Below, one piece after another: positions 57,001-60,000 of a DNA stretch of 64,000 bases. The number at the start of each line of letters is the position of its first letter. The first letter of the stretch is position 1. A program made the position numbers. The DNA comes from Escherichia coli (GTDB lineage: Bacteria; Pseudomonadota; Gammaproteobacteria; Enterobacterales; Enterobacteriaceae). The stretch lies in the NCBI RefSeq assembly GCF_002854065.1, contig NZ_CP024154.1; one strand, given 5' to 3'.

Positions 57001-60000
57001 TTTGAACTCGTCACAAAAATAGATATAGATATACATAAAAAGAACAGGTATGCGAGTTATGATCTTAGAAGGAAAATCGAAATGCAGCATGAAGAGTTTC
57101 AGAAAATGACAGAGCGCGAGCAAGTGCCTTTATTGAAATCGCCAGAATAATAGAAACAGTACAAGTACATTGCTGTATTGTGTTTTCCTTGAATATTGAA
57201 TCGCGGTGCCCATGTACTACGATTCCTTTCGTGTTGTTTATCATTGCACACTTTCCCTGACTGAGCGTAAACACTGACTACTTTCCCCTCAAACTCCTGG
57301 ACGGCGAATGCACAATTGGTCTGTTCCAGCATAGAATATGTTACTTTTTCATGACCGAACCCGAAATATTGCGCGTCAATAAGAGACGTTGTGTAAACTC
57401 AGTCCTTTTATCTGGCAGGTTAACCCCTATCAATCTTAGGATGAAACCACGCCATCCTCTGTTTGCCTGGTTATTAATTTCATAAAGACGATTGTTTTCC
57501 TCTCGTAGTTTTGTCCACTCTAAACAAAGTGTTATATCATCCAGTTCTGTGATGTGTTTCACTTTTCCATTGACAGTTACAGTGTTTATTCCATTTCCTG
57601 TGATCATCATCTTATGCCTTTTTTATCTTCATTTGGGACCGTGCTTTTCTTCGGAGTATCACTATTCGTTAACTGCTGTTTATCAATAAAATTCCTGATG
57701 TTATCAAGTGCTTCCTTTTTTTGTCCACCTGTTATCAGGAGTGTTTATTGCCCAGAAATATTCTCCTGCTGTGCCTGCATCCTGAGCCACTTTTGTTCTA
57801 ATGTCGCCAGTCTGCGACCGGCACTCTGTGCTTCAGAGTCTGAGACCTGCCCTTTGGGGTGACCATCCAGGCCATAACGTGGGACGCCGGCGACAGCTGT
57901 CCGCTGCAGATATACGCGGCGGGATGTGATGCAGGACACTGCACAGAGCCATTCGTCCATGGTCAGTTCTGTCTCCGGGTGTTCTGCCAGAAATGCCGAA
58001 ATATCATTGTTTATGCCAATTTTCAGGGGAATAAATCCACCACCTTCAGCACGAAGATGAGGAAACAGGGCCTTTATTTTTTCCACGCACTCGTGAGTAT
58101 ACTCACGGGTCCAGTGGGAGGGACGTGGAAAACGGTGTCTTTTCTTTTTCTTCTTCCTGGCTGGCGCTTCGGGGATATGTGTTTCGACGGCAGATGAATT
58201 TATTCCGGCGGGGGCTGATTCTGCCGTCTGTTCAGTAAATACAGGTGCGATAATATCTGTTTTTTCGGATAAGGACGGTGGCGAAAAAGTACGACGTTTT
58301 TTCACCACAATGACGGGAGTTTTCCTTTCTTCCTGATTTTTTCCCATAAATACCTCGGCTGGCTGGTTTTACTCTTTAATAATATCACAATTCATAAATT
58401 AGTAAATTTCCCATCAGGTGATTTTTCATGGCTAATAAGTCCGTTCTCTGAGTATTTATACTCGAGGTAGTAACAGTTATGGCGTGACAGTCGAATTGAT
58501 ATTCTACTGAACCCTGACAGAAACATGGTTGATATATTCTCTCACTTTAATGTTGTCATGATATAAATAAAAACAATTCATTTGAAAGGATATCAGAAGA
58601 AGATATCGGGGCGCACAGTTCATCTCTGCCTTTGTTTCATGGGGTGTTCTTTGTATATTTTACTTACTGTTTAAGCATGTACATAAGGAGTGCTTTCATT
58701 ATGCCAATGATACTTGTAAAGAAGAATCCCCGGGGCAAAGTGATTCGGGAGCTTAGCAGTGAGGAAGAGACTGCAGTAAAGACGGTCTGTGGACTGAAAA
58801 AGCCAGCAACCATGGCACTACATAACCTGGCCAATGATATTCTCCGGGAAATGCGTGAGTATGATGCATGGTTACAGTGTGACTGTATTCCGGGAGATTC
58901 GCCGGCCATGAATTTTGCTGCTCTTAAAAACAATACGGGTACTCTTTATCTGTCCAGTTTTAATCATGAGCATGCACCTGAATGCCCCATGTATCGTCAG
59001 TTATCCGGAAATGAAGAGGAAACATCTTCCGGAGCAAGCCGGCATCCCGTTAGCACCCGTATAAATTACAGAAACTTTTTACCACCTGATGACAGTAATT
59101 CTGTTATCAGACTGCAGGCCCGCTCTGCTTACCATAATGGTGAGAGCTCCTCCGTTCGCAAGAAACGTCCGCGCCTTGCCCGTTTACTCCTGTCGCTTAT
59201 TGACGATGCTGGGCTGAATAAACTGGATTCCCTGGCTAATCCCCGTATCCGGACTAATTATCGTGAGTGTCTTGATGCCATACGGCAGGTTACACTGCAG
59301 CAGGAGTATATTCGGGGAAGATCCTTATCTGAAATTATCCATTTCCGGCCTGGAATGTCTGAAAGGTCTCAGGAGCGGTTAATGGAAACGCTGGAGAATT
59401 CAGAACGACACTGGCCTGCCAGAAGAAAACATATGTTCTTTCAGATTTTTATGGCGCAGCACATCTGTCGTGATGCTGTGGAAATTCACTGGGCGAACGG
59501 TAATATTCAGGTCATCAGACCTGTGCGGGGGATCAGTATTAATGGTGAAGCGCAGGGCGGAATACGTCCCCCTTACTGGGTTATTCTTGCTTTTTGCCGG
59601 AGTGCCGATGGCAGAATCATCTGCAGTGAAGGGTATGCTCATGCTCTTTATCAACTGACATGTCCGGTGCCTGTGGACAGCAAACTGGAACGAAACACGC
59701 TCACTGCTCTTCTGAATGTGGCCAGCTGGCTTAAAAGAAAGCCAGGTACGCCGGAATTAAGTCTGGAAAGGCCCCTGTTTGATACAGAAGTTTATGTTAA
59801 TGGTGAAAAGAAATATGTCCTGCCGGATTTCATTGTCACAGCAAGGGCTCCTGACGGAAAGACGGCCAGAGTGGTCATCGAAACGATGGGATATGAAGAC
59901 AGTGATTACTGCGCGAGAAAATCCAGGCAGCATACCGGCATGAAGCAGATTGGTGTTCTGCATACCGATCCACCGAAATGGCTGGATAACGATCATCCCC

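What the first reader, a model, noticed from the sequence alone, without database searches (positions are those of the whole stretch)
57745..58347. FinO-domain RNA chaperone gene near the replicon
The ProQ/FinO-domain core is clear. Plasmid FinO-domain proteins act on antisense-RNA control systems, and this plasmid carries two within the window (Inc RNA/repA and the pnd antisense pair), so a regulatory link is plausible.
Basis: partly seen in the sequence, partly recalled or inferred. Interest (0 to 1): 0.3.

Follow-up and report, generated by a model that had tools for sequence, protein, structure and literature searches.

The report
Known FopA RNA chaperone gene
The gene is real, and it is the already characterised plasmid RNA-binding protein FopA, which binds the small antisense RNA that controls replication of this plasmid family; the finding is correct but ordinary.

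Summary
Window 57745-58347 (minus strand) is an intact 200-aa ORF with a ProQ/FinO domain (Pfam PF04352, 48 bits against a cut-off of 27). Its predicted fold matches only FinO-domain structures (RocC, FinO, Lpp1663, NMB1681).

It is 199/200 identical to FopA (YafB) of Salmonella SL1344 plasmid pCol1B9. It is 100% identical to the 'proQ' gene of the E. coli I-complex plasmid pMS7163B. The published RNA-binding residues Tyr146 and Arg157 are present, and yagA lies next to it as in pCol1B9.

FopA is published (Gerovac et al. 2020, PMC7491321). RIP-seq reads are dominated by the about 70-nt Inc antisense RNA. The protein binds Inc and the repZ leader at about 1 uM and speeds Inc-repZ pairing about sevenfold.

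The window carries the matching target. An Rfam PK-repZ leader (162 bits) sits at 53490-53639, with an Inc-type hairpin on the opposite strand, 4 kb from fopA.

The pnd link is untested. No published fopA deletion or copy-number measurement was found. Published transposon data on pMS7163B show that insertions in the gene are tolerated and that it is not needed for transfer.

Novelty: already known. Interest: low.

The parts
57745..58347 (-). fopA (yafB) coding sequence: 200 aa, 22.4 kDa, pI 9.5, stop codon included
   Evidence: ORF listing. 199/200 identical to pCol1B9 FopA. 200/200 identical to pMS7163B_00080 'proQ'. Mass and pI computed.
57790..58098 (-). ProQ/FinO domain (aa 84-186), including the RNA-binding residues Tyr146 and Arg157
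   Evidence: Pfam PF04352 at 48 bits against a cut-off of 27. Y146 and R157 present and invariant across 9 plasmid homologues down to 30% identity. AF2 block-mean pLDDT of at least 91 over aa 81-190, and a FinO fold by Foldseek.
58099..58347 (-). FopA-specific N-terminal region (aa 1-83), predicted disordered, with two basic stretches (KKRR at 16-19 and RKKKKKRHR at 64-72)
   Evidence: 18 K+R against 9 D+E. pLDDT below 50 for aa 25-60 and no secondary structure before aa 81. The KTPVIVVKKRR motif is conserved in homologues. This matches the paper's description of a distinct N-terminal domain with two positively charged stretches.
58348..58631 (.). AT-rich (35% GC) divergent intergenic region between fopA and yagA, with consensus-level promoter-like sites for fopA. 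No AGGAGG-type Shine-Dalgarno sequence is evident just before the ATG.
   Evidence: GC content and upstream sequence. Minus-strand promoter-like sites at 58406-58379 and 58586-58558, at about chance frequency and therefore only suggestive. The region has one substitution relative to pCol1B9.
53489..53570 (-). Inc/RNAI antisense RNA, the inferred principal ligand: a long hairpin with the CGCCAA loop motif followed by a UUUUCCUUU tail. The ends are approximate and inferred by homology to ColIb-P9 Inc.
   Evidence: RNA fold of -41 kcal/mol, z = -7.9. The stem is identical to pCol1B9 and the loop keeps TTGGCG on the sense strand. A -35/-10-like TTGAAT...TATATA lies upstream on the minus strand.
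53490..53639 (+). repZ/repA leader with the pseudoknot element, the mRNA target of Inc
   Evidence: Rfam RF01087 PK-repZ at 162.5 bits against a gathering score of 44, full length 1-150.
53652..54524 (+). repA/repZ replication initiator gene (IncFII-superfamily RepA of an I-complex IncK2/Z-type replicon)
   Evidence: 290-aa ORF. Annotated as repA in the near-identical plasmids JE86-ST02_p2 and pMS7163B. Closest plasmids are typed IncK2/Z.

Best explanation
This is fopA (formerly yafB), the FinO-domain RNA-binding protein of I-complex plasmids. It is carried here by an E. coli IncB/O/K/Z-type plasmid.

Shown for the protein that differs by one residue:
- It is a basic, roughly 22-kDa RNA-binding protein.
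- Its dominant cellular ligand is Inc (RNAI), the about 70-nt antisense RNA transcribed opposite the leader of the replication-initiator mRNA.
- It binds Inc, the leader and their complex at about 1 uM.
- It protects Inc from RNase.
- It speeds Inc-leader pairing about sevenfold.

Inferred for this window:
- The FinO domain (aa 84-186, with Tyr146 and Arg157) grips the base of the Inc terminator hairpin and its short U-rich 3' tail.
- The disordered basic N-terminus helps strand annealing.
- Faster pairing blocks leader-peptide (repY-type) translation and formation of the pseudoknot that repA/repZ translation needs.
- FopA would therefore tighten negative copy-number control and lower plasmid cost, mainly in stationary phase when FopA accumulates.

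Recognition is probably by RNA shape rather than loop sequence. Identical or near-identical FopA proteins travel with three different Inc/RNAI loop variants.
For: Identity: 199/200 to FopA of pCol1B9 and 200/200 to pMS7163B 'proQ'. The published key residues Tyr146 and Arg157 sit at the same numbers. The computed mass of 22.4 kDa matches the published 22 kDa. yagA is the divergent neighbour, as in pCol1B9.

Domain and fold.

Published function: RIP-seq dominated by Inc, with repZ mRNA also enriched. EMSA Kd of about 1 uM, sevenfold faster duplex formation and RNase protection.

Target present in the window: PK-repZ at 162 bits and an Inc hairpin at -41 kcal/mol, z = -7.9, with a U-rich tail.

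Shape-based recognition: the Inc stem is identical to pCol1B9 while the loop flanks differ. pMS7163B has yet another RNAI variant but the same FopA.

Family context: FopA-family genes sit 1-4 kb from antisense-controlled IncFII-superfamily repA genes in IncK2/Z, IncFII, IncI2 and IncFII(K) plasmids. The IncI2 relative PcnR lowers copy number tenfold.
Against: No in vivo effect of FopA on plasmid copy number has been published in the literature I could search. The primary paper contains no deletion and no plasmid copy-number measurement.

In pMS7163B, which encodes the identical protein, transposon insertions in the gene are well tolerated (Log2MPM 12.96, like other non-essential genes). Only the replicon and parAB were needed for maintenance.

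In vitro affinity is modest (about 1 uM), and FopA also binds chromosomal Salmonella RNAs.

Nothing was measured on this plasmid's own Inc variant.
Confidence: 0.85

Rival explanations
1. PcnR-like mode. The protein represses replication mainly by binding a stem-loop in the rep leader mRNA directly and blocking leader-peptide translation, independently of the antisense RNA.
For: The IncI2 relative PcnR (about 32-34% identical) does not bind its antisense RNA. It represses repA through the first stem-loop of repR mRNA. FopA binds the repZ 5'UTR fragment with affinity similar to that for Inc, and repZ mRNA is co-enriched in RIP-seq.
Against: FopA RIP-seq reads are dominated by Inc, not by the mRNA, and FopA measurably accelerates Inc-repZ pairing. 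The two modes are not mutually exclusive.
Confidence: 0.08
2. Broader riboregulator. Its main role is on other structured RNAs, such as the antisense RNAs of the plasmid's type I toxin-antitoxin loci (pnd, dqlB/agrB-like) or host chromosomal RNAs, with Inc binding being secondary.
For: The window carries a pnd (hok/sok-type) locus at 9255-9561 and a DqlB/AgrB-like pair at 5679-6123. FopA also pulls down chromosomal structured RNAs (STnc1590, STnc700, mgtM).
Against: No pnd or other toxin-antitoxin antisense RNA is named among the top FopA ligands in the paper's text. A defined pnd mutant of pMS7163B had no transfer phenotype. There are no data linking FopA to toxin-antitoxin control.
Confidence: 0.05
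3. FinO-like fertility inhibitor. It represses conjugative transfer the way F-plasmid FinO does.
For: It has the same domain as FinO. In pMS7163B TraDIS, insertions in the gene were enriched in transconjugants (Log2FC +2.20, FDR 1.7e-123).
Against: Many unrelated 'other genes' in the same table show +2 to +4.7, so +2.2 is background, and the authors called only impB a repressor. The NCBIfam FinO model scores 25.7 bits against a cut-off of 136. FinO and FopA have distinct target sets in Salmonella. Any increase in transfer could be secondary to copy number, as for PcnR.
Confidence: 0.02

Closest known systems
FopA (YafB) of Salmonella Typhimurium SL1344 plasmid pCol1B9 (IncI1); Gerovac et al. 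2020, RNA 26:1448 (PMC7491321)
   Same: 199/200 residues identical. Same length, same Tyr146/Arg157, same basic N-terminus, and same divergent neighbour yagA. Same type of replicon control: an Inc antisense RNA with a pseudoknot leader.
   Different: One substitution (Leu23 to Pro) in the disordered N-terminus. The host plasmid is an E. coli IncB/O/K/Z-type replicon whose Inc/RNAI loop flanks differ from IncI1. The yafA gene downstream of fopA in pCol1B9 is missing here (a 394-bp difference). An IS1 element sits 0.9 kb away.
pMS7163B_00080 'proQ' (WP_000517694.1) of the E. coli I-complex plasmid pMS7163B; Lian et al. 2023 (PMC10286972)
   Same: 100% identical protein in the same gene order: parA/parB, yagA, fopA, the 89-aa ORF '090', the RelE/RHH toxin-antitoxin pair, repA.
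   Different: pMS7163B has an IncZ RNAI with stem and loop changes relative to the window. It has no IS1 at this site.
PcnR of IncI2 plasmids (pHNSHP45); Yang et al. 2021 (PMC8053102)
   Same: A FinO-domain protein encoded a few kb from an antisense-controlled repA, with a conserved KTPVIVVKKRR-like N-terminal motif and the same Tyr/Arg. It represses plasmid copy number.
   Different: Only about 32-34% identical. PcnR does not bind the antisense RNA; it binds the repR leader stem-loop directly. IncI2 leaders lack the IncI1-type pseudoknot.
FinO of F-like plasmids (PDB 1dvo)
   Same: Plasmid-encoded FinO-domain chaperone that protects a cis-antisense RNA (FinP) and speeds its pairing with its target mRNA (traJ).
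   Different: 24% identity over the Foldseek-aligned core. The N-terminal helix is different. Its target is transfer control, not replication. The NCBIfam FinO model is far below its cut-off (25.7 against 136 bits).

Membership tests
ProQ/FinO domain family (Pfam PF04352) | Sequence match to the family HMM above the curated threshold | tested here: met
   48 bits against a gathering score of 27, E=1.4e-12, aa 84-186 covering profile positions 4-102 of 109.
ProQ/FinO domain family (Pfam PF04352) | FinO-domain three-dimensional fold | tested here: met
   AF2 block-mean pLDDT of at least 91 over aa 81-190. All 26 Foldseek PDB matches with E below 0.004 are FinO-domain proteins: RocC at TM 0.82 (target-normalised, rmsd 2.5 A), FinO 1dvo, Lpp1663 and NMB1681.
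ProQ/FinO domain family (Pfam PF04352) | [quoted passage not shown] | tested here: met
   Y146 and R157 are present and invariant in a 9-sequence alignment down to 30% identity. Their role is stated in PMC7491321.
ProQ/FinO domain family (Pfam PF04352) | Binds structured RNA / RNA chaperone activity | not testable with these tools
   Shown experimentally for the protein that differs by one residue (RIP-seq, EMSA, annealing kinetics), not for this exact allele.
FopA (YafB) subfamily | Near-identity to the type protein of pCol1B9 | tested here: met
   199/200 identical with no gaps.
FopA (YafB) subfamily | Distinct N-terminal region with two basic stretches, no FinO-type N-terminal domain and no ProQ C-terminal domain | tested here: met
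   KKRR (16-19) and RKKKKKRHR (64-72). The N-terminal 80 aa is predicted disordered, and the protein ends after the C-terminal helix of the domain. The description is in PMC7491321.
FopA (YafB) subfamily | Gene position between yafA and yagA, near the I-complex replicon | tested here: inconclusive
   yagA is adjacent and divergent, as in pCol1B9. The 164-aa gene that lies downstream of fopA in pCol1B9, presumably yafA, is absent here because of a 394-bp difference. Synteny is context, not a strict criterion.
FopA (YafB) subfamily | Co-occurrence with an Inc/repZ-type antisense-controlled replicon | tested here: met
   Rfam PK-repZ at 162.5 bits, 4 kb away. Inc hairpin on the opposite strand. 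The co-distribution is stated in PMC7491321.
FinO (F-plasmid fertility inhibition protein) | Match to the NCBIfam FinO subfamily model above its cut-off | tested here: not met
   NF010317 scores 25.7 bits against a cut-off of 136.
ProQ (chromosomal RNA chaperone) | Match to the NCBIfam ProQ equivalog model above its cut-off, with a C-terminal domain present | tested here: not met
   NF003434 scores 24.5 bits against a cut-off of 127, and only the N-terminal domain region aligns.
PcnR (IncI2 copy-number repressor) | Close sequence relationship to the IncI2 protein | tested here: not met
   32-34% identity to IncI2 plasmid homologues. It is a related branch, not the same protein.

The most novel reading that the evidence does not exclude
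Identical or near-identical FopA proteins travel with at least three different Inc/RNAI specificity variants (IncI1, this window's IncK2/Z-type, and IncZ of pMS7163B). FopA may therefore be a specificity-blind, trans-acting cofactor. It could couple the copy-number control of co-resident I-complex or IncFII plasmids. It might also serve the plasmid's other antisense RNAs (PndB/Sok-like, AgrB-like). Neither role has been tested.
Probability: 0.2. Interest if true: 0.35.

Novelty: already known. Interest (0 to 1): 0.08.

Why it matters
The gene adds nothing new in kind. It is a near-exact copy of a published RNA-binding protein found on well over a thousand sequenced enterobacterial plasmids. 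One small open point remains. The in vivo effect of FopA on I-complex plasmid copy number, cost and transfer has not been measured directly, and these plasmids are important carriers of ESBL and other resistance genes.

Tried and rejected
Records not found. HE654725.1, AP005147.1 and CP026855 (without the NZ_ prefix) were not in the collections. The RefSeq records NC_017718.1 and NZ_CP026855.1 worked instead.

pnd enrichment could not be checked. I tried to look for pnd RNAs in the FopA RIP-seq tables, but no supplementary files are held for PMC7491321.

Literature searches. Searching the I-complex TraDIS paper text for FinO, ProQ, FopA, yafB and yagA found nothing. The gene appears only in its supplementary Table A, labelled 'proQ'. 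Searches for later FopA functional work returned only the 2020 paper, the FinO paper, a review and passing citations.

Interpretations rejected. The +2.2 TraDIS log2FC is not evidence for repression of conjugation, because many unrelated genes score as high or higher. Terminator-like hits inside the fopA ORF on either strand are consensus noise.

Searches not run. I did not run the large protein-database searches, because identity to a characterised protein settled the question.

Full report
**1. Observation**

The coordinates 57745-58347 match an intact minus-strand ORF exactly: ATG start, 200 codons, stop included. The product weighs 22.4 kDa with a pI of 9.5.

- Pfam places a ProQ/FinO domain (PF04352) at aa 84-186. 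The score is 48 bits against a gathering cut-off of 27, E=1.4e-12.
- A sequence search of the PDB finds the E. coli ProQ N-terminal domain (5nb9, E=1.5e-5) and Legionella RocC (E about 0.009).
- An AlphaFold2 model was built on a nine-sequence alignment of plasmid homologues. The first 80 residues are predicted disordered (pLDDT below 50 for aa 25-60). The domain is confident: every 10-residue block covering aa 81-190 has mean pLDDT of at least 91.
- In Foldseek against the PDB, all 26 matches with E below 0.004 are FinO-domain proteins. They are RocC (TM 0.82 normalised to the target, rmsd 2.5 A), FinO 1dvo, Lpp1663 and NMB1681. The next hit is at E=1.7.

**2. What it is**

Megablast of the locus finds 1,495 PLSDB plasmids, mostly conjugative E. 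coli, Salmonella and Shigella plasmids. The gene is annotated there as 'ProQ/FINO family protein'. The best matches are typed IncK2/Z, MOBP, MPF_I. The last 24 kb of the window is 99% identical to E. coli I-complex plasmids of 81-89 kb.

The protein is 199/200 identical to the ProQ/FinO protein of pCol1B9 from Salmonella SL1344 (NC_017718, 5713-6315). That protein is FopA, formerly YafB, described by Gerovac et al. 2020 (PMC7491321) as lying next to yagA on pCol1B9.

- The single difference is Leu23 to Pro, in the disordered N-terminus.
- The published key residues Tyr146 and Arg157 sit at the same positions.
- Both residues are invariant across homologues down to 30% identity.
- The two basic N-terminal stretches described for FopA are present.
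- The protein is also 100% identical to pMS7163B_00080 'proQ' of the E. coli I-complex plasmid pMS7163B.

**3. Surroundings**

The gene order in the window is as follows.

| Feature | Coordinates | Source |
|---|---|---|
| repA leader (Rfam PK-repZ, 162.5 bits) | 53490-53639 (+) | |
| repA | 53652-54524 (+) | |
| RHH antitoxin / RelE-ParE toxin pair | 55427-55986 (+) | |
| IS1 with 9-bp target duplication AAATAATCT, absent from JE86-ST02_p2 | 56079-56846 | |
| Small ORF, 105 aa | 56833-57150 (+) | |
| Small ORF, 89 aa | 57341-57610 (-) | |
| fopA | 57745-58347 (-) | |
| AT-rich divergent intergenic region (35% GC) | 58348-58631 | |
| yagA | 58632-60047 (+) | |
| parB / parA | 60574-61499 (-) | |

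Relative to pCol1B9, a 394-bp segment about 23 bp downstream of the fopA stop codon is missing. This removes most of the 164-aa gene that lies there in pCol1B9. Some other plasmids in the collection carry that segment, which shows as two-piece matches.

**4. The target RNA in this window**

Opposite the repA leader, the minus strand at about 53489-53570 folds into a long hairpin (-41 kcal/mol, z = -7.9 against shuffles). The hairpin is followed by UUUUCCUUU. A -35/-10-like TTGAAT...TATATA lies upstream on the minus strand.

- The 15-bp stem is identical to that of pCol1B9.
- The loop keeps the TTGGCG motif on the sense strand.
- The loop flanks differ from pCol1B9.
- pMS7163B, which encodes the identical FopA, has a third RNAI variant with changes in both stem and loop.

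FopA therefore accompanies several incompatibility-determining RNAI variants. This fits recognition of hairpin shape plus a 3' tail, as established structurally for RocC bound to a terminator (PDB 7rgu, among the top fold matches).

**5. Mechanism**

Shown in the literature for the protein that differs by one residue:

- Purified FopA binds Inc, the repZ leader fragment and their complex with an apparent Kd of about 1 uM.
- It accelerates Inc-repZ complex formation about sevenfold.
- It protects Inc from RNase A.
- It accumulates in stationary phase, at an estimated 200-400 copies per cell.

Inferred:

- Faster pairing strengthens Inc-mediated inhibition of leader-peptide translation and of pseudoknot formation.
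- This lowers RepA/RepZ synthesis and plasmid copy number.

A review states this outcome. However, the primary paper contains no deletion mutant and no plasmid copy-number measurement, and I found no later study.

Published TraDIS data on pMS7163B bear on this (PMC10286972, S1 Table A):

- Insertions in 'proQ' (7188-7790) are well tolerated, with Log2MPM 12.96.
- Only the replicon and parAB were required for maintenance.
- The post/pre-conjugation Log2FC is +2.20, within the range of many unrelated genes. The authors did not call the gene a repressor.

The gene is therefore dispensable for maintenance and transfer in the laboratory. That is compatible with a fine-tuning role, but it does not demonstrate one.

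**6. Rivals**

- PcnR-like direct binding to the leader mRNA. PcnR of IncI2 is about 32-34% identical, does not bind its antisense RNA and lowers copy number tenfold. This is possible as an additional mode, because FopA also binds the repZ leader. It is unlikely to be the main mode, given that Inc dominates the RIP-seq.
- A broader role on other antisense RNAs. The window holds a pnd (Hok-family) locus at 9255-9561. It also holds a DqlB/AgrB-like type I toxin-antitoxin pair at 5679-6123. This role is untested.
- FinO-like fertility inhibition. The NCBIfam FinO model is far below its cut-off (25.7 against 136 bits). FinO and FopA have distinct targets. The TraDIS signal is at background level.

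**7. Comparison and novelty**

The gene is a member of the FopA branch of the ProQ/FinO family by every sequence and structure criterion I could test. It is neither FinO nor ProQ by NCBI's curated models. It is a distant cousin of PcnR.

FopA-family genes recur 1-4 kb from antisense-controlled IncFII-superfamily repA genes:

- IncK2/Z, pEGY2: a variant only 49-54% identical, in the same slot but in the opposite orientation.
- pMS6193B (typed IncFIA), beside an IncFII-family repA: about 65% identical.
- IncI2.
- IncFII(K), pKpQIL-like: about 30% identical.

Gerovac et al. and Yang et al. partly noted this pattern already.

**Verdict**

The finding is correct, and its main interpretation is already established experimentally. 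It is not novel. The only open points are the in vivo copy-number effect and whether other plasmid antisense RNAs are ligands.

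Noticed in passing
window 56079-56846: A complete 768-bp IS1 element flanked by a 9-bp target duplication (AAATAATCT). 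It is inserted between the RelE/RHH toxin-antitoxin pair and a 105-aa ORF, and is absent from the otherwise near-identical plasmid JE86-ST02_p2. It lies 0.9 kb from fopA and does not disrupt it.
   Followed up: yes
window about 57721/57722 (23 bp downstream of the fopA stop codon): A 394-bp difference relative to pCol1B9. Most of the 164-aa gene that follows fopA in pCol1B9 (5163-5657, presumably yafA) is missing here. Other plasmids in PLSDB carry the longer form (two-piece matches spanning 1,795 bp).
   Followed up: partly
An Rfam AgrB antisense RNA hit (47.7 bits against a gathering score of 40) lies at 5679-5766 on the minus strand. A DinQ-like type I toxin DqlB peptide (NCBIfam 63 bits against a cut-off of 35) is encoded at the 3' end of the plus-strand ORF 5827-6123.
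   Followed up: partly
window 9255-9561: The pnd/hok-type locus is real. An Rfam sok-family hit (124.7 bits) lies at 9255-9411 and a 50-aa Hok-family ORF at 9409-9561. In pMS7163B TraDIS pnd scored -3.4, but a defined mutant transferred normally.
   Followed up: partly
window 57341-57610 (-): This 89-aa ORF just downstream of fopA equals gene '090' of pMS7163B (WP_000627831.1). It scored as required for conjugation in TraDIS (Log2FC -3.5), but a defined mutant had no phenotype. It has no Pfam or NCBIfam match.
   Followed up: partly
window 53494-53552 compared with L002 (pCol1B9), L010 (pMS7163B) and L005 (pEGY2): The Inc/RNAI hairpin has an identical stem but different loop flanks from IncI1, and pMS7163B (IncZ) differs again, while FopA is at least 99.5% identical in all three. 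pEGY2 has nearly the same RNAI as the window but a FopA only 49-54% identical, in the opposite orientation. The chaperone and RNAI specificity therefore assort independently.
   Followed up: partly
L004 (pMS6193B), L008 (pECAZ147_KPC), L007 (IncI2): FopA-family genes lie 1-3 kb from IncFII-type repA (with tap leader peptide and copB-like repA regulator) and from IncI2 repA. In the IncI2 plasmid a Hok/Gef gene sits immediately upstream of the FinO-domain gene.
   Followed up: no
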